DNA from: a virus
Lineage: Duplodnaviria > Caudoviricetes
Virus record (IMG/VR): IMGVR_UViG_3300013947_000019
Coordinates: 160,001 to 224,000 of that record
DNA: 64,000 nucleotides
Strand: one strand, 5' to 3'
How positions within the stretch are numbered: position 1 is the first letter of the stretch; every line of letters starts with the position of its first letter. Positions 14,254 to 54,093 of the stretch are shown in pieces. A program made the translations under genes and the position numbers. The notes below the pieces were generated by a model. The model searched no databases and was not told where the DNA came from. It was given only the letters and a program-made list of their open reading frames with translations.

Positions 14254-15462
14254 ATGCACATGGCGACGTTAAAGCAGCGGCTGAATCGCAAGAACTCCAG
14301 TGGAACGTATGATACCGTTTATCTGGAGACTTCTTCCGAAGTCGTTAAAAGACCGTCTGGTACGACGGTTGAAAGTGATTTAACCAATTATCTGCCAAAA
14401 GTCCAAGACTCGGATTCTGTGCCAGAAAGCCTAACGCACGGCCAGCTCTGTACTGGCCTAAATAAGGGTTTCTTGAGACTTAATAATTCTACAATACAAT
14501 TAGCGAGTCAATCTAGTATAGATACTCTTAGTGGTAATATATCTACAATAAACAATGAAATATCAAGTTTAAAATCCTCTGTCAGTAATGGCAAAAGTTT
14601 AATTGCCGCAGCGGTAACTGACAAGGGAGTACCAACCGCTGCATCTGATAGTTTTACTACTATGAGTAATAATATCAGAAAGATTAATGATCCAGTACCA
14701 GTTCAATCTCTTCCTGAAGGATATACCCAGGTTAATTATATATTAACAGATGGAAAAGCTTATATTGATAGCGGAATATCTAACTTTTTGATACGTTCAT
14801 TAATAACTAATACAAACTGGTATCAGCATTTTTCGCTTAGGTATATATTTTCTATACCAAACGCAGATACTATACCAGATGTATCTCTTGTTACAGATGC
14901 TTTTAGAATATTTGGTAATACTGTATTTAATATTAGTTGTTACAAAAATACAACTGGATACAGCAATAATAGTATATCTAAATGCGATGAAAATGATAAT
15001 AAACGATTTACAATACGATTATATCCAATTGCGACAGATTCATATGTAATCAATACTCTTATAACAACACTAAGTGATACTATAATTGATTATAAACTTA
15101 TGTCAAGTGTAGGATATGGTGGAGGAAACTATTATTGTAATATGCAAAATTATATAGGTAATACAAGCACAGGATCCAATATAGAAACGAAAAGAATGGG
15201 TAATGATTCTAATTCTTTCTATCTTGGACGAGGATTAGTATCAAGAATGCCCGAATCTATACCATCTAAAATTTATCTATTTAATTTATCATATTGTCCT
15301 AGAGATATTACTCCTCAAAACTATAATCCAGCAACTGATATTATAGAATATTCTAATATGATACCTTGCATTAATCCTTCTGGTGAAGTCGGAATGTATG
15401 ACACGGTAAGACAACGATTCTTTGGTAATGCTAACACTGAAGGTAGTTTTACTTATGGATAA
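14254..15462 (+). CDS. Tail fibre/receptor-binding protein at the expression locus (constant ~62-aa N-terminus plus variable cassette)
   Basis: AAAGGAG RBS; N-terminus LKQRLNRKNSSGTYDTVYLET; from G63 (GQLCTGLNKG) nearly identical at DNA level to the start of cassette 52519..54021. Confidence 0.85.
   Translation: MHMATLKQRLNRKNSSGTYDTVYLETSSEVVKRPSGTTVESDLTNYLPKVQDSDSVPESLTHGQLCTGLNKGFLRLNNSTIQLASQSSIDTLSGNISTINNEISSLKSSVSNGKSLIAAAVTDKGVPTAASDSFTTMSNNIRKINDPVPVQSLPEGYTQVNYILTDGKAYIDSGISNFLIRSLITNTNWYQHFSLRYIFSIPNADTIPDVSLVTDAFRIFGNTVFNISCYKNTTGYSNNSISKCDENDNKRFTIRLYPIATDSYVINTLITTLSDTIIDYKLMSSVGYGGGNYYCNMQNYIGNTSTGSNIETKRMGNDSNSFYLGRGLVSRMPESIPSKIYLFNLSYCPRDITPQNYNPATDIIEYSNMIPCINPSGEVGMYDTVRQRFFGNANTEGSFTYG
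14422..14445 (+). repeat. Putative recombination site in the expression locus
   Basis: CCAGAAAGCCT-AACGCAC-GGCCAG, same register as the cassette sites (CCRGA-N4-CT-N7-GGC). Confidence 0.7.
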
Positions 15463-15466
15463 GAAA

Positions 15467-15489
15467 TCCCCTCCCAAATTGGGAGGGGA
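15467..15489. terminator. Bidirectional terminator between convergent fibre genes
   Basis: TCCCCTCCC / GGGAGGGGA stem. Confidence 0.75.
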
Positions 15490-15499
15490 AATCTTTTTG

Positions 15500-15796
15500 T
15501 TAGCTTTGTTTAGTAGCATTGGCTTTTAGCCATGTGAAAAACACATCAGAACAAGTTGCACCTTCAGAGAATGTAATAGTGTGATCAGAACCATTCCATC
15601 TCTTAGTATCAAAGTAATACAATGTTTTTCCACCAACCCCAGCATTTAAACTTACATCTCTGTTTGAAACTGGATCAATAACTATGCTTGTATATTTGGA
15701 GCCAGCATGTGTTACATCTATCTTCTCAGTGAGTTTAGCCTCAGTAGGATATAATGTATCATTTAACAGCCAAGTACCAGCTAATGTTACAGTCTC
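15500..15796 (-). pseudogene. Start-less 98-codon continuation of the 669-aa fibre in the -1 frame (ETVTLAGTWLLN...FFTWLKANATKQS)
   Basis: Fills the gap to the terminator; joins 15787..17796 if one extra G is added at GGG 15796-15798. Confidence 0.65.
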
Positions 15797-17796
15797 CCGC
15801 TAAGAGAAATATCAATACAAATATGAGGTCTGAATCCTAAGGTTACGCTATAATGATTACTACTAATAGCGCCATCACTATCAACTGAATCATTATACCC
15901 AGATGAAGATGAAGTAAGAGCCCACCAATAAGAAGCTTCTCCCTTGTATCTACAAATACGATTAGCATTATTTTTATAATAACTAAATCCGCTATTTAAT
16001 TGTGTTCTTGATGGTAAAAATACCTTTCCAGTATAGCTATCTATAGTTTGAGCTACCATATAATTTTGAGCAGTACTAGAGAAATTAGAAAGATATTCTG
16101 TACATTTAGTAGTTAATACTGTAGATGTACATTCTTCAACGATAGTACTATTAGCCAAATACCATTTCGTTCCCTCATTATGAACTACTAAGAAGCTCTT
16201 ATCATCAAACGTTACGGTATTACCAACAACAAGATCACCAGTCAGAGGAATATTAGTAGATTGAGGCTTTGCTTTTCGAATACAAACAATACCTGAACCA
16301 CCTTTGCCGCCAGAAGAATAACTTGCTGAATTAGTACCTTGACCGCCGCCACCACCACCACCAGTATTAGCCATTCCTGCACCTGCTGGATATTTATAGT
16401 TTCCTCCATTACCTCCTCCACCTTTACCACCAGAACCTGCACCACCATTTACATCATAATCAGCGATATTAGTAGAGTTGCATCCTCCACCACCTCCGCC
16501 TGCGTACAGCTTACCGGAAGATTCTCCAAATTCTCTAGTGGTAGTACCTTGACCAGATCCAGCAGAAGTACTTGCACCATCAGAACCACCTTTACCACCA
16601 GTATATGCACCACCATCACCACCAGCAGAGCCTCCATCAGCAGTAGTAGAATTAGTTCTTCCTCCCTTACCACCATTAGCTGAAAGAATATTACCAAAAC
16701 TTGTAGTTTCTCCATTAGATCCAGTAGAACCATTAGCTCCACCATTACCAATTGTGACATCAATTCTTGTATTTGCTGTAATTTTATTATTAAGACGTGT
16801 AGCAGTATATCCTCCTCCTCCACCAGAAGATCCGGAAGTACTAGAGCGATTTCCGCCTCCTCCACCGCCACCAACACAGAAAATATCAATATTATTATCA
16901 TCTAATAATTTAAACTCACCAGAACTTAATAACTCAACAACACCATCTTCAAATCGAATTCGATAATCACCAGTATAAGTAAAATCAAGCCCAGAGTTAT
17001 TGATATTAATTACAATATGCGGACGGAAGCCATTCCCTAATGTTGGAGTAGAACTTCCAGTTATTTCACCAGATGCATATACATAACGCATACCATTAGA
17101 AGATGTCCCATATCTATCTGACATCCACCAAGCTCTAGCTGAATCATTATAATTACAAATACGGTTTGTATTGCTATTATAATACTCAAATCCTCCATTA
17201 CACTGATCATATGTAGGAACAAATACCTTAGCAGTAACATATTCCACAGTTACATCTAAGCAGTATTCCTTAGCAATAGTACTTAGCTGCTCACTCTCAT
17301 ATGTACTAGCAACATTAGCAAGTGTAGAATTTTTATATGCTAAGTTTCCAGTGCTAAAAGAAGTTATACTATAGATATCTTTTGCGGCTAAATACCAATG
17401 TGTACCTTCCTGATGAACAACTCTCCAAGATTTATTGTCAAAGGTGACCAAGTTGCCAACTGCCAAGTCACCAACCAAAGGGATAAAGTCATTACGGAAG
17501 TCAACAAAGTAGTCGACTGTACCACTCTTGATAGTCACTGTCTTGCTGACAGTCTTTCCACCAACGGTACCGGTAATAGACCATTCTCCTTCAGGGTTAT
17601 CTTCAGGAAGTGTGATCTTTGCTGCACCAATAGAACTGATATATTTACTATCTACAGATACACCATCTTTTACTGCAGTAAAAGTAGTAGTTGTAGCTAC
17701 TGTAGGAATAGTTAACCAAATTGAATACGTACCACCAACAGTTGAACCAGAGGTGGCATATCCAATCGATATAGCATTACCATATATGATAGCCAT
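15787..17796 (-). CDS. Receptor-binding/fibre protein: two DUF6273/C-type-lectin-like repeats flanking a glycine-rich domain
   Basis: Duplicated IPL.GDL.VGN.VTFD.KS..VVH.EGT.WYLA...WW...GFRPHI; Gly-rich VGGGGGGG...TTREFGESSGKLYAGGGGG...GSGIVCIR. Confidence 0.75.
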   Translation of the reverse strand: MAIIYGNAISIGYATSGSTVGGTYSIWLTIPTVATTTTFTAVKDGVSVDSKYISSIGAAKITLPEDNPEGEWSITGTVGGKTVSKTVTIKSGTVDYFVDFRNDFIPLVGDLAVGNLVTFDNKSWRVVHQEGTHWYLAAKDIYSITSFSTGNLAYKNSTLANVASTYESEQLSTIAKEYCLDVTVEYVTAKVFVPTYDQCNGGFEYYNSNTNRICNYNDSARAWWMSDRYGTSSNGMRYVYASGEITGSSTPTLGNGFRPHIVININNSGLDFTYTGDYRIRFEDGVVELLSSGEFKLLDDNNIDIFCVGGGGGGGNRSSTSGSSGGGGGYTATRLNNKITANTRIDVTIGNGGANGSTGSNGETTSFGNILSANGGKGGRTNSTTADGGSAGGDGGAYTGGKGGSDGASTSAGSGQGTTTREFGESSGKLYAGGGGGGCNSTNIADYDVNGGAGSGGKGGGGNGGNYKYPAGAGMANTGGGGGGGQGTNSASYSSGGKGGSGIVCIRKAKPQSTNIPLTGDLVVGNTVTFDDKSFLVVHNEGTKWYLANSTIVEECTSTVLTTKCTEYLSNFSSTAQNYMVAQTIDSYTGKVFLPSRTQLNSGFSYYKNNANRICRYKGEASYWWALTSSSSGYNDSVDSDGAISSNHYSVTLGFRPHICIDISLSGRL

Positions 17797-17867
17797 ATAA
17801 AATGGACCTCCTTTTTATATATTAAAATAGATAGGGTAGTGCTGGATGCACTACCCCACTTTTATAT

Positions 17868-19223
17868 TTAAATAGTAACCCAAGTTTCAGATGAGTCATT
17901 ATATAATTTAGCTTCCTGGGGTTGCGCTAAACCATTCTCATCACCAATATATACTGCATCTATACCCAATTCTAATTGTGTATCTGAATTATTAATAGCT
18001 TTCCACATATTAGTACTTGAATTACTTTTAATTAATAGATGATTATATTTAAGTGGAGGATTTATTGTAAAAGATGAATAAAATCCTGCAGATCTAACAC
18101 CGTGTAACAACATAACACCATTTCTAACATTCATACTATTTTCATAATCACAAATATATGGTATAGTAAGAGTTAATTTCTCAAATGTGTTATTAGTTGT
18201 ATTAAATTTATAACAGTAATCACAAGTATTTATGCCTGCTCCACCCATATCATAAAAATTCGTCATAGACTTAAAATAATATATATAATCGCCCATTACA
18301 TACACTTTACCAAATGCTACACTCTCTGGTATAGTAGCAACAACTGATATACTATTAGATGTTAAATCATACATACGTACTGAATTTACAGAATAATCAT
18401 AGTCTTGGCGATATCCAGTTGTTCCACCAAACATATACAAATATCTATTATCTTTTATACAAACTGCTTGACCACAGTATCTATAAGTAGATGTATCATA
18501 CCTAATACGCGTAAAAGTGTCTGTTGTTGTATCAAATTTATTTATATTACCATTCGTATAATTATAATCAGAACCTTCATAACCTCCAACCAAATAGATA
18601 TCTGTACCATTTCTACAACAACCCATAAGAGCAGAACTAGATAAAAATGTACTATTATCTACTTTAGTTAATGTTGGAGAATCAGTATTTGTGCCATCTA
18701 TTTTAATATATGATCTAAATGAAGCTTGTGAATAACCATTTATACCACCAAAGGAATATAATTTATGACCAACTCCTACTAGACTTACACCCCAAGAATA
18801 CGGAATTCCATAAGTGGTTAATGATGATCCATTATCTGAAATAGCCACATAAAATGTTAATTCTCCAGTATTAATATTTAATTTACAAATATTTACACCA
18901 GAATATGTAGTGCTATTTTTTGAATATTGATAATAAACATAACAAAATACACCATCATCATTATCAGCAATAGATATTATCTGATAAGAAGTAGGCGTAT
19001 TTGAAAATCCAGTAGAATTTAGTGTATATTTAAATTGCTTAATAGTATTATTGCTTAAATCAACATTGGGGGTAATTTGTATATTTATTGGATTAATACC
19101 ACTGCACCATAGTTTACTCGTATCACTCGGAGGAGTAGAACCATAATCAATATTCAATTGCACTCCTTTATTAGCACGGCTACCACCACGAATAGTAACA
19201 CCATTACCCATGATAGTTCCCAT
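17868..19223 (-). CDS. Kelch/beta-propeller receptor-binding protein
   Basis: Kelch-type LYSFGG, IYLVGG and LYMFGG repeats. Confidence 0.75.
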   Translation of the reverse strand: MGTIMGNGVTIRGGSRANKGVQLNIDYGSTPPSDTSKLWCSGINPINIQITPNVDLSNNTIKQFKYTLNSTGFSNTPTSYQIISIADNDDGVFCYVYYQYSKNSTTYSGVNICKLNINTGELTFYVAISDNGSSLTTYGIPYSWGVSLVGVGHKLYSFGGINGYSQASFRSYIKIDGTNTDSPTLTKVDNSTFLSSSALMGCCRNGTDIYLVGGYEGSDYNYTNGNINKFDTTTDTFTRIRYDTSTYRYCGQAVCIKDNRYLYMFGGTTGYRQDYDYSVNSVRMYDLTSNSISVVATIPESVAFGKVYVMGDYIYYFKSMTNFYDMGGAGINTCDYCYKFNTTNNTFEKLTLTIPYICDYENSMNVRNGVMLLHGVRSAGFYSSFTINPPLKYNHLLIKSNSSTNMWKAINNSDTQLELGIDAVYIGDENGLAQPQEAKLYNDSSETWVTI

Positions 19224-19224
19224 C

Positions 19225-19671
19225 TTACTTCACCTCCGAAACAGTAACTAAAACTGTTACATCAGTTTCAGGAACAGCATCCATACATTCAGCATGAATA
19301 GTACCATCCACATTCAAGAACTGCAGAAAGCTACTACCAGCATCCAAGAATGCGCCATATGCAACCGTGTTCAGAGTAGGATCAATCTTACTCTTAGCAG
19401 TAGTACCAGCAATGGTAACATTCTGACTATATACGACTTGATTACCACTATCAGTTCCTTCTGTCCAACTATCAGCTTTTAATACAACTTCGATATATGG
19501 ATCCTTTGTTGCATCCTTTGTAGCAAAGGTTTCAAGCTTTTGACTGACCGTTGTATTATCTGTTTCTGACATGATAACTGCATCGGCTGTAGTCTCTAAA
19601 CGGACGACATCATAACTGCCCTCCGCGTTCCTTCTGTGTAATCTCTGTTTTAGAACGGCCATTTTCACCAC
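19225..19671 (-). CDS. Fibre adaptor; paralogue of the expression-locus N-terminus
   Basis: MAVLKQRLHRRNAEGSYDVVRLET; own AAAGGAAAG RBS. Confidence 0.75.
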   Translation of the reverse strand: MVKMAVLKQRLHRRNAEGSYDVVRLETTADAVIMSETDNTTVSQKLETFATKDATKDPYIEVVLKADSWTEGTDSGNQVVYSQNVTIAGTTAKSKIDPTLNTVAYGAFLDAGSSFLQFLNVDGTIHAECMDAVPETDVTVLVTVSEVK

Positions 19672-19729
19672 TTTCCTTTCTAAAACCCCTTCAGAGGGTA
19701 GTTTAGAGCAAAATGCACTTTTGGACTTT

Positions 19730-19753
19730 ATCTGCCAAAAACTAGAAAATCGG
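19730..19753 (-). repeat. Degenerate cassette site G
   Basis: CCGATTTTCT-AGTTTTT-GGCAGA, same spacing as site D. Confidence 0.55.
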
Positions 19754-19767
19754 ATCGATTAAGATAT

Positions 19768-20403
19768 TTACCATGCATAACAATTAAATCCAATAGTTGC
19801 TAATTCATTTTTAATAGCTGATGTCATACCACCGGTTATTAATAAATATCGAGAATAATTAGCATTAAAATTACCACTAGGATATCCACCAATAAAATAA
19901 TTTATAGTTTCACCAGATTCTAATTTTAGTGTAATATAATTCCAATATGGGTCATATACTGTCATACTAGTAAATTTAGTAAGAGGAGATATGTATGTGT
20001 TATTGCTTCCTAAATATACTGAATATGTTGCAGTTAAATATCCTGATATAGTATATGTTTTATCTAAATGATTAGAAGGCATACTACGAGTATATAACTC
20101 TCCAATATATTGAATGACTAATCCTTGATTTATATTCCTGATATTACTAGCCATTTGCGAGAAGGCAGTAGAAGCTGCTGTGCTAACACCTTTGTCAGTA
20201 ATCGCACTCGCAATCTGCGCCTTCCCGCTACTGACAGATGTTTTTAGTTCGTTATATTGAGCTACTGTAACATATGTACCATTGTGGTTATGATTCGCTG
20301 CTGCATAATTGCCCTTAGGCTGGTAGTTTTCTGGTTTAATGATCCGGCCAGTACCATCATATCCTTTGTATATCAATCCGGTTTGACCTGTCACAAGCTG
20401 GCC
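19768..20403 (-). CDS. Silent fibre C-terminal cassette A (GQLVTGQTGLIYKG...)
   Basis: No RBS; in-frame TGA 15 nt upstream of the GGC codon; carries the SVSSGK..IASAITDKGV repeat. Confidence 0.75.
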   Translation of the reverse strand, partial: GQLVTGQTGLIYKGYDGTGRIIKPENYQPKGNYAAANHNHNGTYVTVAQYNELKTSVSSGKAQIASAITDKGVSTAASTAFSQMASNIRNINQGLVIQYIGELYTRSMPSNHLDKTYTISGYLTATYSVYLGSNNTYISPLTKFTSMTVYDPYWNYITLKLESGETINYFIGGYPSGNFNANYSRYLLITGGMTSAIKNELATIGFNCYAW

Positions 20404-20421
20404 GGATTTCAGAAATCACGG
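20398..20421 (-). repeat. Cassette site A
   Basis: CCGTGATTTCT-GAAATCC-GGCCAG. Confidence 0.8.
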
Positions 20422-20431
20422 CAAGAGAAGA

Positions 20432-20454
20432 ACCTCCCCTATTTTAGGGGAGGT
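20432..20454 (-). terminator. Terminator immediately upstream of site A
   Basis: ACCTCCCCT / AGGGGAGGT stem followed by TTCTTCTCTT on the minus strand. Confidence 0.75.
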
Positions 20455-20461
20455 GTTCTTT

Positions 20462-20629
20462 TTAACCAGCTATATTTTCAGGGTACTTCTCATCCAGTAG
20501 ATCACAAAGTTCACTATACTGATCTTCAGTAAGTCTCTTCTTAGCATAAAACATATCCAGACGTTCCTGTGCTTCTTCTCGAGTTTTATAGAAATGACGA
20601 TTAATTAAAATCTTCATAGATCTATACAT
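20462..20629 (-). CDS. Small 55-aa XkdX-like fibre-associated protein absent from the ORF track
   Basis: MYRSMKILINRHFYKTREEAQERLDMFYAKKRLTEDQYSELCDLL...; GGGGAGG RBS; typical position after a fibre chaperone. Confidence 0.65.
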   Translation of the reverse strand: MYRSMKILINRHFYKTREEAQERLDMFYAKKRLTEDQYSELCDLLDEKYPENIAG

Positions 20630-20632
20630 AAA

Positions 20633-20944
20633 TTATTCCTCCCCTAAGTCAGTAATATCTTCTTGATATACAGATTCAACTGTTTCAGCAAGAGATTGTT
20701 CGAGTTCTGTAGCATCATCGATAGCCTTCTGCTCAGCAGTTTTTACCTCAACACCATCTCGATAAAATTTATTTTCATTAAGATTATATTGATCACCCAC
20801 TGCAGCAGGAATTGATCCAAGACATTTACAATTTGGAAACTCGGGAGCATTTTCATCCGCCATCCAAATAATGTTAGTGACAATATTATTCTCATCTAAT
20901 AAAGCATAATTCTGTACTAGATTATGATTTTCAACTGCATACAT
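20633..20944 (-). CDS. Tail fibre assembly/chaperone-like protein
   Basis: YALLDENNIVTNII...AAVGDQY..F motif; follows a Gly-rich fibre gene. Confidence 0.6.
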   Translation of the reverse strand: MYAVENHNLVQNYALLDENNIVTNIIWMADENAPEFPNCKCLGSIPAAVGDQYNLNENKFYRDGVEVKTAEQKAIDDATELEQSLAETVESVYQEDITDLGEE

Positions 20945-20971
20945 TAAAATATTACTCCTTTCTTATTTTAA

Positions 20972-22027
20972 TTAACGCGCATTACGGATACAAACTATAC
21001 CTGAACCACCAGCACCACTATTGCGCCTAATTAATTGATTTTCAGGATTACTTCTAAAGTATCCTCCACCGCCACCACCAGATCCAGTATTGATAGTGCC
21101 ACCAGTTACATCTCTAATTAATCCTCCAGTATCTTTATGTCCCTCGTATACCTGAAGACCCTGTCCACCGCCACCATTTCCAGGAAAAGTATCACGTAAA
21201 TGCATAGCTGCACCACCTCCACCAGCATATAACTTACCTGTAGCTTCTCCAAATTCTCTGGTGGTGGTACCTTGACTTGTACCAAAATACTTTTTACCTA
21301 GTGTTCCTGTATATGGTGCAGCAGATCCTTCACTAGGATTACTATATGATAATCCACCATCAGACCCGCCATACATTGTAAATATACGTTGAGATAATGT
21401 ACTACCCGTTACACTTGGAGCACCAGATGATCCGCCATTAGATGCAGTGGTATTTGCCATTGTTAAATTCTTAGCAGTTGCAGCGGTTCCACCGTTTACA
21501 CTATATGATCCAAATGATGTCATTCCTCCATTATTTCCAGGTGTGTAATCGCTAGCATCATTATCAGTATTATATGCAGCAGATTCACCACCTGCACCAA
21601 TTATAATTTTAAAAGTATTACCTTTAGTTATAGATAATGATCTAACAGTTTTAGTATAACCAGAGCCGCCACCATGTCCACCCATACCATTAGAACTGCC
21701 CATAGCATAACCAACACCACCAGAAGCTCCACCACCAACCATAAATACATCAATCTTACTAGCAGTATTTCCAAGATCACCTATAGTTAACGTTCCACTA
21801 GTTTTGAAACGAATGACAAAATTTCCTTCTAAGTTTCCTTCAGTAGCATAACTGCCAGTATAAGTAAAAGCAAACGGTGTGCTAGCAGAGTAAAATAATC
21901 TGGCTTTTCCACCTACACCAATATATGCTTTCTGCACCTTTCTTGCCTTACCATTTACACCAATATAGATATTCTTTACTAATCGTGCCTTACTGCTCAC
22001 ACCAATATATAAATTAGCCATCTCCAA
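20972..22027 (-). CDS. Glycine-rich receptor-binding/adhesin protein
   Basis: Triple YIGV.GKAR N-terminal repeat; Gly-rich domain IDVFMVGGG...TTREFGE.TGKLYAGGGG...GSGIVCIR. Confidence 0.75.
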   Translation of the reverse strand: MEMANLYIGVSSKARLVKNIYIGVNGKARKVQKAYIGVGGKARLFYSASTPFAFTYTGSYATEGNLEGNFVIRFKTSGTLTIGDLGNTASKIDVFMVGGGASGGVGYAMGSSNGMGGHGGGSGYTKTVRSLSITKGNTFKIIIGAGGESAAYNTDNDASDYTPGNNGGMTSFGSYSVNGGTAATAKNLTMANTTASNGGSSGAPSVTGSTLSQRIFTMYGGSDGGLSYSNPSEGSAAPYTGTLGKKYFGTSQGTTTREFGEATGKLYAGGGGAAMHLRDTFPGNGGGGQGLQVYEGHKDTGGLIRDVTGGTINTGSGGGGGGYFRSNPENQLIRRNSGAGGSGIVCIRNAR

Positions 22028-22042
22028 TACACCTCCAATAAT

Positions 22043-22417
22043 TTAGCTATACTGAAGATAGATTCTACCGGTAGTAAGAGCTGTTGTTCCAGAAGTCATT
22101 GCACTTGTTCCTGCATAAATTGCTCTAGCAGAAGCTGTACCAACAGCTGTATCTAAAGTTGTCTGACCTGTACCACCTCTTGCTACTGCTAATGTACCAC
22201 TGGTAATATTAGCAGCTGAATGATTGTGAGAAGCTGCTGCATAGCTACCAGCTGGCTGTTTTCCATTAATAGCAGTATCCATGCTAGCAATTTTTGAACT
22301 AAGCAAAGTATTGTCTGTATCTGACATCTTGATCACAGTGGCAATAGTTTCAAGATATATGATATCATAGGTACCGCTATCATTTTTCCTATTTAATCTT
22401 TGTTTCAAGATAGCCAT
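22043..22417 (-). CDS. Fibre adaptor; paralogue of the expression-locus N-terminus
   Basis: MAILKQRLNRKNDSGTYDIIYLET; H-N-H and GTLAVARGGTG fibre motifs; AAAGGAG RBS. Confidence 0.8.
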   Translation of the reverse strand: MAILKQRLNRKNDSGTYDIIYLETIATVIKMSDTDNTLLSSKIASMDTAINGKQPAGSYAAASHNHSAANITSGTLAVARGGTGQTTLDTAVGTASARAIYAGTSAMTSGTTALTTGRIYLQYS

Positions 22418-22455
22418 AGTTGGGCTCCTTTCTAGAAATGAATGCTTCCACCAGA

Positions 22456-22479
22456 TTGGCCCAACTTCAGAAAATCCGG
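22456..22479 (-). repeat. Cassette site B
   Basis: CCGGATTTTCT-GAAGTTG-GGCCAA; 23 bp identical to site F. Confidence 0.8.
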
Positions 22480-22504
22480 TCTATGGTGAATAAAAGAAAA
22501 AGAA

Positions 22505-22530
22505 TACCCCTGGGAATATTCCCAGGGGTA
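22505..22530 (-). terminator. Terminator upstream of site B
   Basis: 12-bp perfect stem TACCCCTGGGAA / TTCCCAGGGGTA plus U-tract. Confidence 0.8.
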
Positions 22531-22539
22531 ATTCTATCA

Positions 22540-23802: not shown

Positions 23803-23933
23803 ATCTATAACTCTCCTTTCGAGATAATACTATTAGGAAGTCTATTATAGGTATGTCAAAATCATGTTTTTGTACAAAAATGTTATATTTAATAGAAACC
23901 CCCTCTCCAATAATTGGAGAGGGGTGATTAATT

Positions 23934-24167
23934 TTATTCAGTAGGATTGTTCAAATAATCCAGATATGCAGCGAGTGCTTCTTCAGGAGTATTGAACTCT
24001 TTATTCAGAGTATCTTCAATAACCAATACTCTATCAATATTGGTGATATATCCGCGACGACCAGTGCAGATAACATCCTCATTCTCGTAGTTAAAATTCT
24101 TAATACCAAGAGCTATACGTGCATCAGGAGCAGTCTCCCCAGCTTTAACAACATAACCAGTATACAT
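23934..24167 (-). CDS. Small cassette-linked protein, probable fibre chaperone; paralogue of 52271..52504
   Basis: GYV.K.GETA.D.RIAL.IKNF.YEN.DVIC.G.RGYIT shared with its paralogue; AAGGAGG RBS. Confidence 0.75.
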   Translation of the reverse strand: MYTGYVVKAGETAPDARIALGIKNFNYENEDVICTGRRGYITNIDRVLVIEDTLNKEFNTPEEALAAYLDYLNNPTE

Positions 24168-24192
24168 AGTATTTATTCCTCCTTGATAAAAA

Positions 24193-25800
24193 TTAGTTAA
24201 TATTAGTAACTACACCATTTTTAATAACAGCTGCTAGTTGGATCGAGAATCCATCGGCAGACTGATAATAAACTTGATTTACACCAAAGTTAAGTTTCGT
24301 CTTTCCATCATTATACATCTCAGTAGAATTGAAATAAGAAGAAGGATCACAGACTATAGTTCCAGGTTCTAAGTCAGTACTATTAATAGCAAATTTAGCA
24401 ATAGTATGATACCATTTACGATTAGCGTAGTTTGATCCACTACCGTGGTAATATCCACCAATAAGATATACATTTCCTTTATAGTAACCATAGTAATAAA
24501 TATAACCATTACCATATTGTTGTGGCAATATACTATCAAGACCTGACGTGATTCCTGTTTTTATGTTATAAATACTAACACTTTGACATGCAATAACATC
24601 AGTATCTGCTGTTCCAGTTGACATTGCGCCGAATGTATATAATAAATCACCAATCTGAATACAGCTTCCACCAGTTCTATATGTGGCAGAACTACTAGAA
24701 CCAGTATAATGATAAATAATTTTAAGTTCAGATAATGCATATTTTGTAATAAGATTTGTTGCTAAATCTATTTTTCCGTTTAAACCACAGTTAGAAGTTC
24801 CACTAATTCCACCAAAGAATTCTAGTGCATTATCATTTAAAACAAAAGGACCGTTATAAATAAAACTCATATCTCTAATATCAGCTAGCATTGTTATAGT
24901 ATTAGTATCTAAATCAATTACATGTATTGAATGATATGATCCAGAATTAGCTACCATAATATATAATTTATTTCCAATGATTTTAGTAGAATTAATACTC
25001 TGAACTGAACCATATCCAGATTGCACTAAGTCATATCTTGTTGTAACTGCAGTTTTAGTATTATAAACCCACATATATACTACTAAATTAGCATTGTTAC
25101 TGCCGCCAATATATCCCAAAGCATATATATTATCATTATATGTTAGATTAGTATTGCTGAAATTTGTTGCATCTAATCTTCCATTTGCTTCATACGATGG
25201 TTTAGATGGTAGATATGGTACTACCGTATAAATATCAGTATCAATATCATATGCATAACTGTAATTATTAACAGTATTTGATATTACTGCAGTTCCAGGA
25301 CCATCATTACCGGTGGTACCACTAATTCTATATCCACCTAAACAATATAAAACACTACCAATTAAACCAGACCAACCACCACATAAACAATATTCTGTTT
25401 CTGTTTTAATATTATTAGCCGTTCCATCTGCTGTATAAATACCACTTTTAATCTGAATATCATTTATCTCAGAAGAGGCGCGTTTAACCCATAGACCATT
25501 TTGTGCAGTAGGTTGAGTAGTTTGACAAAAGATATTTAATGAACTATCACCACTATATGAATTGATGGATCGAATATTAGTTGCCATCTGATCAAACATT
25601 TCAGTAGAAGCAGTAGGTACACCTTTTTCAGTGATAGCTTCAGATATTTTTTCTTTACCATACTTTACAAGTTCATCATTCATTTCACCTACTACTCCTT
25701 CCACTTCAGATTTTAAAGCATAATCATCTGGTGTAATAATCCGGCCAGTACCATCACTACCTTTATATATAAGACCTGTACTACCTGTCACAAGCTGGCC
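24193..25800 (-). CDS. Silent fibre cassette C, Kelch/beta-propeller (GQLVTGSTGLIYKG...)
   Basis: Begins at site C with no RBS; QPTAQNGLW joint; LYCLGG and VYLIGG repeats. Confidence 0.75.
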   Translation of the reverse strand, partial: GQLVTGSTGLIYKGSDGTGRIITPDDYALKSEVEGVVGEMNDELVKYGKEKISEAITEKGVPTASTEMFDQMATNIRSINSYSGDSSLNIFCQTTQPTAQNGLWVKRASSEINDIQIKSGIYTADGTANNIKTETEYCLCGGWSGLIGSVLYCLGGYRISGTTGNDGPGTAVISNTVNNYSYAYDIDTDIYTVVPYLPSKPSYEANGRLDATNFSNTNLTYNDNIYALGYIGGSNNANLVVYMWVYNTKTAVTTRYDLVQSGYGSVQSINSTKIIGNKLYIMVANSGSYHSIHVIDLDTNTITMLADIRDMSFIYNGPFVLNDNALEFFGGISGTSNCGLNGKIDLATNLITKYALSELKIIYHYTGSSSSATYRTGGSCIQIGDLLYTFGAMSTGTADTDVIACQSVSIYNIKTGITSGLDSILPQQYGNGYIYYYGYYKGNVYLIGGYYHGSGSNYANRKWYHTIAKFAINSTDLEPGTIVCDPSSYFNSTEMYNDGKTKLNFGVNQVYYQSADGFSIQLAAVIKNGVVTNIN

Positions 25801-25817
25801 GGAACTCAGAAATCCGG
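25795..25817 (-). repeat. Cassette site C
   Basis: CCGGATTTCT-GAGTTCC-GGCCAG. Confidence 0.8.
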
Positions 25818-25852
25818 GTCTAGGTCAAATAAAGAAAAAAAAAGAAAATATA

Positions 25853-25874
25853 GGGAGGAGCCGAAGCCCCTCCC
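25853..25874 (-). terminator. Terminator upstream of site C
   Basis: GGGAGG.GC-TTCG-GC.CCTCCC hairpin with a long T-tract on the minus strand. Confidence 0.75.
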
Positions 25875-25884
25875 CAGTTATTTT

Positions 25885-26046
25885 CTACCCCCGAACATTT
25901 CGGAAAGTCAATGCCGTATATAGTAACATTGCACCAAGCCACTGTAAGCTAGTAGGCCAATCGCCTTTCTGAATAATATTGACAACTAAACTACCAAGTG
26001 CTCCTACTACCATCATGATCGGGAAAATGATACGTAACAGATCCAT
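25885..26046 (-). CDS. Small 53-aa two-TM membrane protein absent from the ORF track
   Basis: MDLLRIIFPIMMVVGALGSLVVNII...WLGAMLLYTALTF; AAGGAG RBS. Confidence 0.55.
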   Translation of the reverse strand: MDLLRIIFPIMMVVGALGSLVVNIIQKGDWPTSLQWLGAMLLYTALTFRNVRG

Positions 26047-26098
26047 ACTTAACTTTTCTCCTTCTTACTAGTATTGTACAGATATGTTACTTATATCA

Positions 26099-26632: not shown

Positions 26633-26652
26633 AACAATATCAATACCCTTTC

Positions 26653-27042
26653 TTATATTTTGAGTTTCCTTCGATGAGGAAGAGTGAGAAAGACTTCTCT
26701 ATAGGTATCTGCGACTCTACAATAGATCTCATATTGATAATCTTTCGGTACTAATGATGAACTTATAAGCAACCTACCAGTTTTAGATTCCATGATACTA
26801 TAACTATCTAAACAATGCTTAGCCATCTTTCGGATTTTCTTTTCTATCTTGTGTTTTGGTAGATAAGAATATCTTGTGAGTAAACCATTGTAGAAGCTAT
26901 AATACATTCGATATAGATACAATACAGATGTTCTGTATCGAATCCACTCCATGTCATAATCATATGCAGCAAGTTCAGCTATACTATTCAGTTCTTCACT
27001 AGCTAAACGTGGAGTGCTTCTGATAAAATCGTCAATGATCAT
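26653..27042 (-). CDS. Hypothetical protein
   Basis: ATGA overlap with the upstream gene. Confidence 0.65.
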   Translation of the reverse strand: MIIDDFIRSTPRLASEELNSIAELAAYDYDMEWIRYRTSVLYLYRMYYSFYNGLLTRYSYLPKHKIEKKIRKMAKHCLDSYSIMESKTGRLLISSSLVPKDYQYEIYCRVADTYREVFLTLPHRRKLKI

Positions 27043-27464: not shown

Positions 27465-27479
27465 ATTTGATACACTCCT

Positions 27480-27968: not shown

Positions 27969-27974
27969 TTTTGT

Positions 27975-49983: not shown

Positions 49984-51555
49984 TTAAATATCTGTAACTA
50001 CACCATCTTTAATGATAGCAGCATCTTGCTTATGAAAACCATCTGCAGCTTGATAATATACATCATCAATACCATAATTTAGAGTAACCAGATCACTAGA
50101 GTACATATTGGTAATATGATTACCAGTTGTTGTAGGTTGACAAATAATAGTACCAGTATTATAGGTATTAGATTGGATAGTATATTTAGAAACTGCCATT
50201 TTATATCTACTAGAACTACTATCATAAGCACCTAATATATAAAAAATATTATCCTTTTGACAATATCCAAAACTAAAATTCAATTTAATAAAAGGATATG
50301 TAATATTGGTATCAATAACATTTTTAATTACTGATGACGTACTAGTAGGAATATCATATACTACGATATCAGTAAGATTACTTTTGTCTTCAGTATTAGC
50401 TGTTGTACCAATATAAAATACTTTACCATTAAAATTACATACCGCTATTGGACATTGTGCTATAGTATATTCCTTAGGATATATAGTATAATCAGGAATA
50501 GTATAATTTTTATTAGTAATATCATACGTAAATAATAATTTCTCTTTAACGAAATAGTATAAAGTATTATTATAATAAACAAGTTTAGCTACTCTTGTAT
50601 TATAAGAAAAACTATCTGAACTTAAACTTAGTGGATAATTCAAAATATCAACACTTATTAATTGTGTCATCCACATTGTTGAAGCCGTAGTATCGGTAGT
50701 TAATGTTGTCAAATCTAAAGAATATATACGAATTTGTTTAATTGATGTTGAATATTCATAAATAGCACTTACATAAAGAATATTATTAATTACAGTACTA
50801 GCAATATAACGTAAAGAACCATTACTAAAACTAACTCGTGGATTACTATATTTTGGTAAACCAGTGTTAATATTTATATTTGTATATATAAGACTATTAT
50901 CAGTAGCTGTATATTTAGCAAAGAATAGTGTATCATCATATATAAATGATGTATTAGAACTAAAATCTGCATTATAATATTTAGTCGTACTAGTGGTATC
51001 TATAGTAGCAGTATTGGTATCAGTATCTATACAATATAACCATGGTGCAGACCCATTACTGGTATTACCAACTCGCCAACAATATAGTTTACCATCTGAG
51101 GATACGCCGGTAATATAGTTTGAATAACTGGATTCAACTGTTTTATCATATGTTATTGGTAGACGTGATACAATACCATCTTCTAAATAATAATCTTCTT
51201 TAATTAAAATATTACTAACTTCACTTCTATTCCTTTTAATCCATAATCCATTCTGAGCAGTTGGTTGAGATATAGAACAGTAGATATTCATTTCACCCAC
51301 TGTACCACTGGCTTGTGTATTAATATTACGGATATTAGTTGCCATATCATCAAAGCTATCTGTAGAAGCAGTGGACACACCCTTATCTGTAATAGCTTCT
51401 GATATAATTTCCTTACCATATTTTACTAACTCATTATTCATATCACTATAATCTCCTACGTCTGATTTAAGAGCATAGTTATCTGGATCAATTGTACGAC
51501 TTGTTCCATCAGTTCCTTTATATAAAAGCTTTGTACTACCTGTCACAAGCTGGCC
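49984..51555 (-). CDS. Silent fibre cassette E, beta-propeller (GQLVTGSTKLLYKG...)
   Basis: Begins at site E; shares MN.ELVKYGKE.ISEAIT.KGV and QPTAQNGLW with cassette C. Confidence 0.75.
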   Translation of the reverse strand, partial: GQLVTGSTKLLYKGTDGTSRTIDPDNYALKSDVGDYSDMNNELVKYGKEIISEAITDKGVSTASTDSFDDMATNIRNINTQASGTVGEMNIYCSISQPTAQNGLWIKRNRSEVSNILIKEDYYLEDGIVSRLPITYDKTVESSYSNYITGVSSDGKLYCWRVGNTSNGSAPWLYCIDTDTNTATIDTTSTTKYYNADFSSNTSFIYDDTLFFAKYTATDNSLIYTNININTGLPKYSNPRVSFSNGSLRYIASTVINNILYVSAIYEYSTSIKQIRIYSLDLTTLTTDTTASTMWMTQLISVDILNYPLSLSSDSFSYNTRVAKLVYYNNTLYYFVKEKLLFTYDITNKNYTIPDYTIYPKEYTIAQCPIAVCNFNGKVFYIGTTANTEDKSNLTDIVVYDIPTSTSSVIKNVIDTNITYPFIKLNFSFGYCQKDNIFYILGAYDSSSSRYKMAVSKYTIQSNTYNTGTIICQPTTTGNHITNMYSSDLVTLNYGIDDVYYQAADGFHKQDAAIIKDGVVTDI

Positions 51556-51573
51556 GGAACTCAGAAAATCCGA
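51550..51573 (-). repeat. Cassette site E
   Basis: TCGGATTTTCT-GAGTTCC-GGCCAG. Confidence 0.8.
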
Positions 51574-51589
51574 CCATTTAGAAAAATAC

Positions 51590-51615
51590 ATCTCCTCCCT
51601 TATTTGGGAGGAGAT
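51590..51615 (-). terminator. Terminator upstream of site E
   Basis: ATCTCCTCCC / GGGAGGAGAT stem. Confidence 0.7.
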
Positions 51616-51621
51616 TAATCT

Positions 51622-51885
51622 TTATTTCTTTGTAAAACTATATGGATACTTACCTGAATGATCTTTAGTATAATCATTTGTATCAGGATCCAAAACATAA
51701 ATATCATAGAACCAATACATTTTATCATTTACAGCTTTCTTTGCTGTATGGATGGAATACTTCTTAATTCCATCTTTTGTTACTTCTGCTTTATAACGCT
51801 TTTTACCATCAACCTTGACAAACTCAAAGCCTGGTTCAGCATCAGCAAGCATAGCCTGCATCTTCTTCACCGGGAATAAGAACAT
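51622..51885 (-). CDS. Small hypothetical late protein
   Basis: AAAGGAG RBS; late motif at 51923-51936. Confidence 0.7.
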   Translation of the reverse strand: MFLFPVKKMQAMLADAEPGFEFVKVDGKKRYKAEVTKDGIKKYSIHTAKKAVNDKMYWFYDIYVLDPDTNDYTKDHSGKYPYSFTKK

Positions 51886-51983
51886 ATCTCAATCTCCTTT
51901 CATTCAGTATTGGTACACTAACTCTATATAAATGTTCTACATAAATATAATACCCAGATATATGAAGGGAGTGTTTATATAAT

Positions 51984-52223
51984 ATGAGTGCTAATGCCGA
52001 ATTGGTCGAGATTGGGAATTGTCCTCCTGGTGCTCGTGGTAGTTTAACAGAAGATGCGATCAAATGGATGAAAGATAACGGACATTGGCCTGAAGATGAT
52101 CCTGGAACAGGTGGTACTGGAGGCGGAAGTGGCGAAGGTTCTGGTGGTAGTAACAGCAATCATGTATGTGAACCCGATTATGAACTGAAGCATCCGAAAA
52201 AAAATTTCCCTTTTTGGATTTGA
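51984..52223 (+). CDS. Small Gly-rich hypothetical protein
   Basis: AAGGGAG upstream; terminator hairpin downstream. Confidence 0.55.
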   Translation: MSANAELVEIGNCPPGARGSLTEDAIKWMKDNGHWPEDDPGTGGTGGGSGEGSGGSNSNHVCEPDYELKHPKKNFPFWI

Positions 52224-52270
52224 TTCAACCAATAGAAATCCCCACCCTATAATGGGTGGGGACTATTTCT

Positions 52271-52504
52271 TTATTCTGAAACAGAATTTAACTTAGCAAG
52301 ATATGCTTCTAAGCACTCCTCTGGAGTATCAAATTCTTTTTCTAGCATATCTTCGATAGTCATAACTTTATTAATTTCAGTAATATAACCACGCTTTCCT
52401 ATGCAAATAACATCATCATTTTCATAATGAAAATTCTTAATGGCTAAAGCAATTCTTTCATCAGAAGCAGTCTCTCCAACCTTAATAACATAGCCCATAA
52501 ACAT
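52271..52504 (-). CDS. Cassette-linked small protein; paralogue of 23934..24167
   Basis: Same length (77 aa) and shared motifs; GGGAGG RBS. Confidence 0.75.
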   Translation of the reverse strand: MFMGYVIKVGETASDERIALAIKNFHYENDDVICIGKRGYITEINKVMTIEDMLEKEFDTPEECLEAYLAKLNSVSE

Positions 52505-52518
52505 AATTCAATTCCTCC

Positions 52519-54021
52519 CTAAATATCTTTAATAATATTACCATTTTTAATGATTGCACCAGATATTTTCTTAAATCCATCATTAGATTGATAATATATA
52601 TCACTAATTCCAAGATTTAAACTAGCTGCAGAATCATTATATACCTCAGTGTTATCATATATTGTTGGCATACAATATACATTATTATTATCATATAAAT
52701 GTGTGTCTAAATGATATTCAGTTATATATTTAACACCTGTATAGCTACTTTGGCTATTTACATATGCTCCACCACCAATATATAATACCCCATCTACATA
52801 ACTATTTACAGCACCATATGCTTGACTTCTTGCTTGTGAACTTGGAAGTGTTAGATTAGAATATGTATATATTTCAGTATTCAAATCAAATATACTAATT
52901 CGTTTAGCCTCGTTATAAAAAGCATTCGTGGTATCAGCAGAGCTCTTTGTTCCTATATTATATATATAATTAAATAATTTAAACCAACATACCGAACTAT
53001 AACTGTATTTATCAGATAATGGTATTACTGGACTACAAAGTGTTATTATTTTTGATGATATATCTATCTTTCCAAAAATGTAAATTGAATCTTTTAATAA
53101 ATATATTTTATTATCATATATAAATAATGATGTTGGTGTTGTAGCATCTCGGCAATTTACACTAATAAAATTAGTATATGTATCACTGATTAAATCGTAT
53201 TTATCAATCACTATTTTATTATTACTACTACCAGAACTATTATAAATATAATCTTTACTATATACAAAGTTGCCTTCTTTCCAAGTCCCTTGTATATCAT
53301 TTCCTCTAGCAGTTGAAAATTGTTTAGTAGTATATGTATTTGTATTAGGATCCAATATAATAAAATCATTCTTATGATAATATGTATATTCATTATTACA
53401 TACAGTAACATGCTGATATAACTTATTATCATATACAAAAGATGGATTATTATTGTTACCTACTGTGCGAAAGTTTCCAGGTGAAATATTATTAACTGTA
53501 GTAATTATTTTTGTTTTTGTATCATATATAAATCCAGTATTTCTAGTAGTAAATCCATATGAACTCCCTAGATATCCTGAATTTACATAAAATAATCCAT
53601 TAATATAACCACCCCAACAACCCATACAATTCTCTGGTAATAGATTATTAATGGCTTCAATCGTTCCATCAGGAATATAATAATCAGGTTGAATATTGAT
53701 CTTATTTACTTCAGCTGAATTCTTTTTAATCCATATACCATTTTGTATATTAGGTTGAGAGTCAGAACAAACAATATTCAAAATACCACCTATTTCAATT
53801 TTTCTGATATTATTACTCATAGTAGTAAAACTATCAGATGCAGCGGTTGGAACTCCCTTGTCAGTTACCGCTGCGGCAATTAAACTTTTGCCATTACTGA
53901 CAGAGGATTTTAAATTATTTATTTCAGTATTAAGAGTATCTATACTATCTTGGCTAGCTAATTGTATTGTAGAACTATTAAGTCTCAGGAAACCCTTATT
54001 TAGGCCAGTACAGAGCTGGCC
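52519..54021 (-). CDS. Silent fibre cassette F, beta-propeller (GQLCTGLNKGFLRL...)
   Basis: Begins at site F; first ~220 nt nearly identical to the expression gene from 14440. Confidence 0.78.
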   Translation of the reverse strand, partial: GQLCTGLNKGFLRLNSSTIQLASQDSIDTLNTEINNLKSSVSNGKSLIAAAVTDKGVPTAASDSFTTMSNNIRKIEIGGILNIVCSDSQPNIQNGIWIKKNSAEVNKINIQPDYYIPDGTIEAINNLLPENCMGCWGGYINGLFYVNSGYLGSSYGFTTRNTGFIYDTKTKIITTVNNISPGNFRTVGNNNNPSFVYDNKLYQHVTVCNNEYTYYHKNDFIILDPNTNTYTTKQFSTARGNDIQGTWKEGNFVYSKDYIYNSSGSSNNKIVIDKYDLISDTYTNFISVNCRDATTPTSLFIYDNKIYLLKDSIYIFGKIDISSKIITLCSPVIPLSDKYSYSSVCWFKLFNYIYNIGTKSSADTTNAFYNEAKRISIFDLNTEIYTYSNLTLPSSQARSQAYGAVNSYVDGVLYIGGGAYVNSQSSYTGVKYITEYHLDTHLYDNNNVYCMPTIYDNTEVYNDSAASLNLGISDIYYQSNDGFKKISGAIIKNGNIIKDI

Positions 54022-54039
54022 CAACTTCAGAAAATCCGG
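54016..54039 (-). repeat. Cassette site F
   Basis: CCGGATTTTCT-GAAGTTG-GGCCAG. Confidence 0.8.
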
Positions 54040-54067
54040 CCTAGGGTAAAATATTAAAAAGACAAAA

Positions 54068-54093
54068 ATTCCCTCCCAATTAAGGGAGGGAAT
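54068..54093 (-). terminator. Terminator upstream of site F
   Basis: ATTCCCTCCC / GGGAGGGAAT plus T-tract. Confidence 0.75.

What the first reader, a model, noticed from the sequence alone, without database searches (positions are those of the whole stretch)
14254..54093. Dispersed tail-fibre cassette-switching system: one expression locus and seven inverted silent sites over 40 kb
Seen: 14254..15462 (+) is the only gene of this family with a late-type promoter, an RBS and the constant N-terminus fused to a cassette. At codon 63 it carries CCAGAAAGCCT-AACGCAC-GGCCAG. Seven sites in the same register lie on the opposite strand: G 19730-19753, A 20398-20421, B 22456-22479, C 25795-25817, D 49918-49940, E 51550-51573 and F 54016-54039. 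Their consensus is CC(G)GATTT(T)CT-N7-GGC, and they are often an imperfect palindrome CCGGATTTC-T-GAAATCCGG. For A, C, D, E and F the GGC is the Gly codon of an in-frame 'GQL/GQI' that opens a 200-540-aa fibre C-terminus (Kelch-like, Gly-rich or short) with no credible RBS/start. A strong terminator sits about 10-35 nt upstream of sites A-F. Established: Mu Gin, P1 Cin and p15B Min fuse a constant fibre N-terminus to alternative C-termini by inversion, but their cassettes are clustered. Inference: crossover at GGC between the + site and any - site fuses the 62-aa constant part to a new receptor-binding domain. This would invert 5-40 kb of genome, including the RNAP and head genes. A multi-site host-range switch spread through a jumbo phage genome looks undescribed to me.
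Basis: partly seen in the sequence, partly recalled or inferred. Interest (0 to 1): 0.95.

Follow-up and report, generated by a model that had tools for sequence, protein, structure and literature searches.

The report
Genome-wide tail-fibre switch in jumbo phage
A 260-kb gut phage keeps one switched-on tail-fibre gene start and nine stored fibre modules scattered over 66 kb, and related phages show these modules swapped in by flipping 5 to 39 kb of the genome at a 24-base site, a much larger, scattered version of the host-range switch known from phages Mu and P1.

Summary

**Sites.** The genome is a circular 259,863-bp phage assembly. It has exactly 10 copies of a 24-bp site: 11-nt inverted arms around a central CT. 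One copy is the expression site on the + strand, inside the fibre gene at window 14431. The other nine lie on the - strand: seven in the window and two just upstream of it.

**Modules.**
- Six silent sites open start-less, in-frame fibre ORFs of 214-538 codons.
- Three precede complete fibre operons. One of these is a diversity-generating retroelement (DGR).

**Evidence from relatives.**
- The same constant N-terminus is joined at the CT to different modules.
- Contigs 99-99.7% identical upstream carry different modules.
- One contig holds both reciprocal junctions of a 5.3-kb inversion.
- Others show a 19-kb block inverted.

**Enzyme.** A 404-aa serine recombinase, the only one in the genome, is conserved in synteny.

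**Not shown.** The enzyme assignment is inferred.

**Novelty.** This scan has found clustered fibre shufflons on other DNA. This dispersed layout is a new variant.

The parts
2491..3705 (-). 404-aa serine recombinase, the candidate invertase. It has a catalytic domain, an E-helix, a helix-turn-helix (HTH) domain and a ~180-aa C-terminal extension.
   Evidence: PF00239 E 3e-29. phrog_125 'DNA invertase' E 8e-50. Best solved relatives are Bin3/Sin, gamma-delta resolvase and Gin. It is the only recombinase found and is syntenic in relatives.
14183..14259 (+). Intergenic leader of the expression locus: a putative promoter (TATAAT-like box) and the Shine-Dalgarno (SD) sequence.
   Evidence: Sequence, conserved in G001. 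Promoter function is inferred, not tested.
14260..14430 (+). Constant N-terminal module, 57 codons, starting MATLKQRL.
   Evidence: SD spacing favours ATG 14260. Database proteins start here and share 64-92% identity over this part while their C-termini differ.
14420..14443 (+). Expression-site crossover site S_X. The left arm is coding and constant, the core CT is at 14431-14432, and the right arm travels with the cassette.
   Evidence: Junction alignments across relatives.
14433..15462 (+). Cassette X0, currently expressed. The fused protein is 400 aa.
   Evidence: The same cassette lies in silent context in G001 and L048.
15467..15489 (.). Bidirectional terminator between X0 and the G unit.
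15787..19671 (-). G unit: a 148-aa gene with its own N-terminal module, a 451-aa Kelch-like gene and a 669-aa Gly-rich gene.
   Evidence: A G-type unit, with the same right arm and first ~58 nt, is driven from the expression locus in L048, L042 and L032.
19733..19756 (-). Site G (core 19744-19745), with a divergent right arm.
   Evidence: Its right arm is found at the expression site of relatives.
19768..20412 (-). Cassette A: start-less, 214 codons from the core. No terminator separates it from the G unit.
20400..20423 (-). Site A (core 20411-20412). A terminator lies at 20432-20454.
20633..22417 (-). B unit: a 124-aa gene with its own N-terminal module, a 351-aa Gly-rich gene and a 103-aa gene.
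22458..22481 (-). Site B (core 22469-22470). A terminator lies at 22505-22530.
24193..25809 (-). Cassette C: start-less, 538 codons, Kelch-like.
   Evidence: A C-like cassette is fused to the constant part in P0003/L024. dN/dS is 0.33 against G001.
25797..25820 (-). Site C (core 25808-25809). A terminator lies at 25851-25876.
48667..49932 (-). Cassette D: start-less, 421 codons, with a Gly_rich_2 domain.
49920..49943 (-). Site D (core 49931-49932). A terminator lies at 49953-49977.
49984..51564 (-). Cassette E: 526 codons from the core.
51552..51575 (-). Site E (core 51563-51564). A terminator lies at 51590-51615.
52519..54030 (-). Cassette F: 503 codons. Its 5' part is a paralogue of X0.
54018..54041 (-). 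Site F (core 54029-54030). A terminator lies at 54068-54093.

Best explanation
This is a dispersed multiple-inversion switch for tail-fibre (receptor-binding) modules.

**Layout.** One locus supplies a promoter, a ribosome-binding site and a 57-codon N-terminal module that probably anchors the fibre to the virion. Its 58th codon starts with the CT core of a 24-bp dyad site. Nine further sites lie in the opposite orientation over 66 kb, each just after a terminator.

**Exchange.** Conservative reciprocal exchange at CT between the expression site and any silent site inverts the DNA between them. The segments are 5.3, 6.0, 8.0, 11.4, 35.5, 37.1 or 39.6 kb to the right, and 19.3 or 26.0 kb to the left. 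The old module is parked behind the silent site's terminator.

**Two kinds of outcome.**
- Six modules (H, A, C, D, E, F) are start-less and become translational fusions of 271-595 aa.
- Three (B, G, I) are whole operons whose fibre gene has its own N-terminal module. Here the constant part ends after 5-12 more codons and the locus supplies transcription only. Module I is a complete DGR, so one selectable module is itself hypermutable.

**Status of each step.**
- Shown by comparison of genomes: exchange at CT, reciprocal products, inverted flanks, and different states in near-identical genomes.
- Inferred: the 404-aa serine recombinase is the catalyst, switching goes on within populations, parked modules are silent, and host range changes as a result.
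For: **Sites.**
- Exactly 10 cores are found genome-wide, and the motif is far above chance.
- All nine silent sites are inverted relative to the expression site.
- The 11-2-11 architecture comes from the aligned site sequences.

**Junctions in relatives.**
- At the expression locus the left arm is constant, and the right arm equals the right arms of silent sites.
- L048 carries both reciprocal junctions relative to this genome. One joins the expression left arm, CT and the G right arm with a G-type unit. The other joins a silent left arm, CT and the X0 right arm with X0 inverted, followed by site A's flank.
- L026/L047, L021 and L043 have the N-terminus joined to an H-type cassette, followed by up to 5.9 kb of genome 154439->148491 inverted at 94-96% identity.
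- L024 has the N-terminus joined to a C-like cassette, followed by the terminase block inverted.
- Seven of the 10 sites have left and right flanks that map to different places in G001, with the break at CT.

**Speed of change.** Contigs that encode an identical 226-aa protein 1.6 kb upstream show five or more structures. L047 and L048 differ at 7 of 2300 nt upstream yet carry different modules.

**Modules are functional.**
- The fusion frame is kept in all six start-less modules.
- dN/dS is 0.32-0.33 for modules that are silent in one or both genomes.

**Recombinase and DGR.**
- The catalytic RVS motif is present, the protein is the only recombinase in the genome, and it is syntenic even in a relative whose N-terminal module is 70% identical.
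- The DGR has a reverse transcriptase, Avd, and a template/variable repeat pair (TR/VR) with 15 of 15 mismatches at template adenines.
Against: - All contigs compared come from different samples.
- Identical strains from different samples share the same state: L042 matches L044, and L043 matches L045. Switching is therefore not so fast that every sample is mixed.
- The expression-site left arm matches the silent left arm at only about 5 of 11 positions, so it would be a weak half-site.
- The recombinase is twice the size of Gin/Hin, and its role is untested.
- For the 35-40 kb inversions (D, E, F) the only support is one one-sided junction in the other lineage (L028 against G001).
- Silence of the parked operon-type modules is assumed from terminators alone.
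- I could not derive the G001 order from this genome by a short explicit series of inversions. Some block ends lie at terminators rather than at sites.
Confidence: 0.78

Rival explanations
1. The sites are scars of rare, ancient site-specific exchanges. The cassettes were shuffled over evolutionary time, but each present-day genome is effectively fixed and no phase variation occurs during infection.
For: - Identical strains from different samples share one state.
- Complete genomes assembled through all the sites without breaks.
- No within-sample heterogeneity could be examined.
Against: - States differ between contigs only 0.3-1% apart upstream.
- Six start-less ORFs stay intact and under purifying selection. 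That needs recurrent expression.
- The recombinase and the sites are conserved across lineages about 15% diverged and beyond.
Confidence: 0.13
2. Modules are exchanged by general homologous recombination at a conserved linker, as proposed for promoter/stem-loop linkers in T4-type phages, with no dedicated recombinase.
For: - Cassette 5' ends and terminators are repeated and could pair.
- Some cassettes are mosaics. The L021 and L022 cassettes are 82% alike.
Against: - The expression and silent left arms are not homologous, and the right arms move with the cassette. The two partners therefore share only CT plus one or two bases at the exchange point.
- The site is a dyad with a 2-nt centre, as for serine recombinases.
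- The exchange is reciprocal and precise.
Confidence: 0.05
3. The motif is a promoter or leader element, and each cassette gene is expressed on its own from a non-canonical start.
For: The motif sits between a terminator and an ORF. At sites B, G and I it lies 40-60 nt upstream of a normal SD+ATG.
Against: - At the expression locus of every relative, half of the motif lies inside the coding sequence, at the exact synteny break.
- A and H have an in-frame TGA 3 codons before the core, and no SD or common start codon is shared.
- There are only 10 copies in 260 kb.
Confidence: 0.03

Closest known systems
Min multiple-inversion system of plasmid prophage p15B, and the two-state Gin/G segment of Mu and Cin/C segment of P1 (own knowledge; cited in the reference list seen)
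   Same: A serine-recombinase-type site with a 2-nt core lies inside a tail-fibre gene. A constant N-terminal part is fused in frame to alternative C-terminal parts stored in inverted orientation. There are several crossover sites, as in Min.
   Different: - The sites are spread over 66 kb instead of about 3.5 kb.
- The inverted segments are 5-39 kb and carry essential genes, including the recombinase itself and an RNA polymerase subunit.
- The recombinase is 404 aa rather than about 190 aa.
- From memory, the site sequence is unrelated to gix/cix/mix.
- Only 57 codons are constant.
- Three modules are whole operons joined transcriptionally, and one is a DGR.
Mycoplasma pulmonis vsa and Campylobacter fetus sap surface-protein switches (own knowledge)
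   Same: A single expression site with a promoter and 5' coding end, many promoterless 5'-truncated silent genes, activation by DNA inversion, and nested inversions that reorder the silent genes.
   Different: These are bacterial chromosomes, not a phage. vsa uses a tyrosine recombinase, and sap uses RecA-dependent recombination over about 600 bp of homology. Neither involves fibre genes or a serine recombinase.
Rin/Rci-type shufflons of prophage tail fibres and R64 pilV (PMC6109161; PMC9881135)
   Same: Multi-cassette in-frame swapping of receptor-binding C-termini by inversion.
   Different: Those use a tyrosine recombinase and clustered cassettes. No tyrosine recombinase is encoded here.
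Two-isomer large invertible region of Anabaena cyanophages (bioRxiv 10.64898/2026.02.14.705889)
   Same: A large segment of a phage genome exists in both orientations, and the state does not follow phylogeny.
   Different: That system has two states bounded by long inverted repeats. It has no cassette choice, no fibre fusion and no assigned mechanism.

Membership tests
Serine DNA-invertase fibre switches (Gin/Cin/Min/Pin) | Recombinase with an N-terminal resolvase-type catalytic domain and a nucleophilic serine | tested here: met
   PF00239 E 3e-29. The RVS motif aligns to the catalytic serine region of Bin3.
Serine DNA-invertase fibre switches (Gin/Cin/Min/Pin) | Small (~190 aa) protein ending in a single HTH domain | tested here: not met
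   The protein is 404 aa, with about 180 conserved extra residues after the HTH (low-confidence model).
Serine DNA-invertase fibre switches (Gin/Cin/Min/Pin) | Crossover site made of two imperfect inverted half-sites around a 2-bp asymmetric core | tested here: met
   The site is 24 bp, 11-2-11, with core CT. The exchange point was mapped to CT by reciprocal junctions. The half-sites are 11 nt, not 12.
Serine DNA-invertase fibre switches (Gin/Cin/Min/Pin) | Fis-bound recombinational enhancer in or near the invertase gene | not testable with these tools
   The host is unknown and no enhancer model is available.
Serine DNA-invertase fibre switches (Gin/Cin/Min/Pin) | Cassettes clustered in one short invertible region next to the invertase gene | tested here: not met
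   The sites span genome 148431-214030. The nearest site is 7.3 kb from the recombinase gene.
Serine DNA-invertase fibre switches (Gin/Cin/Min/Pin) | Both orientations coexist in one population | not tested
Tyrosine-recombinase shufflons (Rci/Rin) | Tyrosine recombinase encoded with the cassettes | tested here: not met
   No PF00589 match in the genome, while the control genomes gave matches.
Diversity-generating retroelement (module I only) | Reverse transcriptase, accessory Avd, and a TR/VR pair differing only at template adenines, with the VR at the 3' end of the target gene | tested here: met
   phrog_1423 E 1e-81 and phrog_3206. A 93-nt repeat has 15 of 15 mismatches at TR adenines on the coding strand.

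The most novel reading that the evidence does not exclude
A common, possibly strictly lytic gut jumbo phage runs an active genome-scale shufflon. A single promoter-plus-anchor locus is served by nine or more receptor-binding modules through serine-recombinase inversions that flip up to about 40 kb of essential genome, including the recombinase gene itself. One selectable module is a DGR. The phage would then layer two diversification systems: a coarse choice among fibre folds and fine mutagenesis within one of them.
Probability: 0.6. Interest if true: 0.85.

Novelty: new variant of a known kind. Interest (0 to 1): 0.74.

Why it matters
- **Scale.** Fibre switching by inversion is a textbook device, but only as a compact two- to six-site cassette block in temperate phages and plasmids. 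Here the same logic is stretched across a quarter of a jumbo-phage genome. Choosing a receptor-binding module re-orients tens of kilobases that include replication, lysis and transcription genes.
- **Prevalence.** This clade is very common in human and pig gut metagenomes, with hundreds of recombinase homologues at about 86% identity. Such a switch would shape host range and persistence of a major gut virus.
- **Combined systems.** It would give a natural case of a DGR placed under an on/off inversion switch.
- **Practical effect.** It would be a source of mis-assembly and false structural variants in virome studies.
- **Possible tool.** It offers a new serine recombinase and 24-bp site pair that appears to work over long distances.

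Tried and rejected
- **Deposited phages.** Megablast of the locus against them found nothing.
- **Third complete relative.** ERZ1035027 NODE-2 could not be searched as a whole.
- **G001 contig ends.** I checked whether they duplicate a cassette exactly, which would hint at mixed orientations. The copies are only 87% alike, so they are paralogues and no evidence.
- **Promoters.** The sigma-70 scan is uninformative in this AT-rich DNA: 85 hits against 68 expected. A k-mer search gave a TATATTAT-type word upstream of many genes, but not a clear class for the expression locus. 'Late-type promoter' therefore stays unverified.
- **Recombinase structure.** The AlphaFold model was too weak for a fold search (pLDDT 58).
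- **G001 from this genome.** I tried to explain the G001 order as a short series of site-to-site inversions. A two-step nested model explains the plus-strand silent sites next to its expression locus. The full order also needs block moves whose far ends lie at terminators, so I did not complete it.
- **Literature.** The searches found clustered fibre shufflons, a survey of programmed inversions and a two-isomer cyanophage inversion, but nothing like this layout.
Full report
**What the DNA is.** The window is bases 160001-224000 of a 259,863-bp virus record with 37% G+C. The two contig ends overlap by about 97 nt, so the assembly is circular. The window encodes:
- a phage-type RNA polymerase beta subunit;
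- a CHAP/PG-binding endolysin and a polyphosphate kinase;
- many fibre-like proteins with Gly-rich, Kelch-like or DUF6273 ends.

A large terminase gene lies just left of the window. Relatives come from human (including Hadza) and pig gut metagenomes.

**Observation.**
- A degenerate pattern gives 6 matches in the window against 0.10 expected.
- A stricter pattern finds exactly 10 cores in the whole genome and nothing else. These are the expression site, the seven named sites, and two more just left of the window: H at genome 155155 and I at genome 148431.
- Terminator hairpins lie 8-30 nt upstream of A-F.
- All nine silent sites are on the minus strand, so each is inverted relative to the expression site.

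**Anatomy of the site.** Aligned on their centre, the silent sites read as two 11-nt inverted arms around CT. The consensus is GGCCGGATTTT-CT-GAAATCCGGCC, and the arms match each other at 10 of 11 positions in the best copies. At the expression site:
- CT is the first two bases of codon 58, at window 14431-14432;
- the left arm is coding sequence and keeps only the outer GCC(A/G)GA block;
- the right arm is of the same kind as in silent sites.

**Two classes of module.**
- *Fusion modules.* H, A, C, D, E and F have no SD or start codon, and a stop closes the frame 4-26 codons upstream. All stay open for 214-538 codons in the frame set by CT. The predicted fusions are 271-595 aa.
- *Operon modules.* B, G and I close that frame after 5-12 codons. 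After 40-60 nt comes SD+ATG and a complete fibre gene whose own N-terminus is a paralogue of the constant module, followed by further genes.

No terminator separates cassette A from the G unit, so these two would be transcribed together.

Module I is a DGR. It has a 357-aa target gene, Avd and a reverse transcriptase. Its 93-nt TR/VR pair has 15 mismatches, all at template adenines.

**Recombinase.** The genome has one serine recombinase and no tyrosine recombinase.
- It is 404 aa, with a resolvase catalytic domain (RVS motif).
- Its best PHROG family is annotated 'DNA invertase'. Its best solved relatives are Bin3/Sin, gamma-delta resolvase and Gin.
- A low-confidence model shows a catalytic domain, a long E-helix, a three-helix HTH and then a conserved extension of about 180 residues.
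- It lies inside the 19.3-kb segment bounded by sites H and S_X.
- It keeps this place in every relative examined, including one whose N-terminal module is only 70% identical.

**Comparative evidence.**

1. *A diverged complete genome.* G001 (256 kb, about 85% identical) is collinear except in the fibre region, where homology breaks fall on the site cores. For seven of the 10 sites the left and right flanks map to different places in G001.
   - Cassette X0, expressed here, sits in G001 behind a terminator and a silent left arm. That flank is the homologue of this genome's site-A flank.
   - The G001 expression locus carries the DGR module instead.
2. *Database proteins.* Proteins with the constant N-terminus (64-92% identical) carry many different C-termini. 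Among them are clear homologues of the silent H and C cassettes, joined as ...PESL-KS-GQ....
3. *Junction DNA.* In all expression-locus junctions read in relatives, the left arm is constant and the right arm is one of the types seen at silent sites. The partners therefore share only CT and a base or two at the exchange point. That fits site-specific exchange and not homologous recombination.
4. *Flanks beyond the cassette are inverted.*
   - L026/L047 runs from the backbone into the H cassette at its core and on through genome 154442->149992 in reverse, at 95% identity.
   - L043 does the same for 5.9 kb.
   - L024 runs from a C-like cassette into the terminase block in reverse.
   - These are the products expected if the 19-kb segment carrying the promoter, the N-terminal module and the recombinase flips.
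5. *Both reciprocal junctions on one contig.* L048 has the expression left arm, CT and the G right arm with a G-type unit. About 3.3 kb further on it has X0 inverted, with its own right arm joined at CT to a silent left arm and site A's flank.
6. *Rate.* Contigs encoding an identical 226-aa protein 1.6 kb upstream show at least five structures right of CT. L047 and L048 differ at 7 of 2300 upstream bases but carry different modules. By contrast, L042/L044 and L043/L045 are identical pairs from different samples and share a state.
7. *Selection.* Orthologous cassettes have dN/dS of 0.32-0.33 even where both copies are parked.

**Mechanism.** I conclude that conservative reciprocal recombination at the CT core moves modules to a single expression locus by inversion.
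- In the arrangement of this genome, every silent site is inverted relative to S_X and direct relative to the other silent sites. Every permitted inversion therefore involves the expression site.
- After one inversion the enclosed sites change orientation. Silent-silent inversions then become possible. This explains why G001 and other relatives have sites on both strands and reshuffled flanks.
- Still inferred: that the 404-aa recombinase is the catalyst, that the locus has an active promoter, that parked modules are silent, and that the modules change host range.

**Rivals.**
- A frozen relic is the main rival, because no within-sample test was possible.
- Homologous recombination and a promoter reading are both contradicted by the junction structure.

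**Comparison and novelty.**
- The logic is that of Mu Gin, P1 Cin and especially p15B Min. The single expression site with many silent genes recalls Mycoplasma vsa and Campylobacter sap.
- It fails two membership features of the Gin family: small size and a clustered invertible region. It is not a tyrosine-recombinase shufflon.
- Literature searches found clustered fibre shufflons, a survey of programmed inversions and a two-isomer cyanophage inversion, but no dispersed multi-module system.
- Earlier notes of this scan describe clustered fibre shufflons on other DNA, one in a phage of about 310 kb and one with a two-locus layout.
- I rate it a new variant of a known kind.

Noticed in passing
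L029:2893-6431 (genome 144893-148431, just left of the window): A complete DGR sits behind site I: a 357-aa fibre target, Avd, a reverse transcriptase and a 93-nt TR/VR pair with 15/15 adenine-specific mismatches. In relatives G001 and L027 this unit is the one at the expression locus.
   Followed up: yes
window 6985-8946 (-): A full-length polyphosphate kinase (PPK1, four Pfam domains) is encoded by the phage and conserved in all relatives. It lies inside the 19-kb invertible segment.
   Followed up: no
window 23810-23870 (-) and 54880-54940 (-): Two genes are preceded by the same compact word TTGACATA-NN-TATAAT. This may be a phage-specific promoter type. The parked fibre modules lack it.
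   Followed up: partly
window 45418-47728 (+): An HNH endonuclease gene sits directly upstream of an RNA polymerase beta-subunit gene. Other first-stage notes report group I introns in this RNAP gene and in a polymerase gene elsewhere in the genome.
   Followed up: no
window 29525-34543 (-): A 1672-aa protein has an N-terminal phosphoesterase-like region and a C-terminal enoyl-CoA hydratase-like region. It is otherwise unassigned.
   Followed up: no
window 51616-52236: About 600 nt between the terminator after cassette F and the terminator before site E has no convincing ORF. The only candidate is a low-complexity 105-aa frame.
   Followed up: no
genome ends (1-100 and 259766-259863): The contig ends overlap by about 97 nt, so the 'linear' record is a closed circular assembly.
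   Followed up: partly
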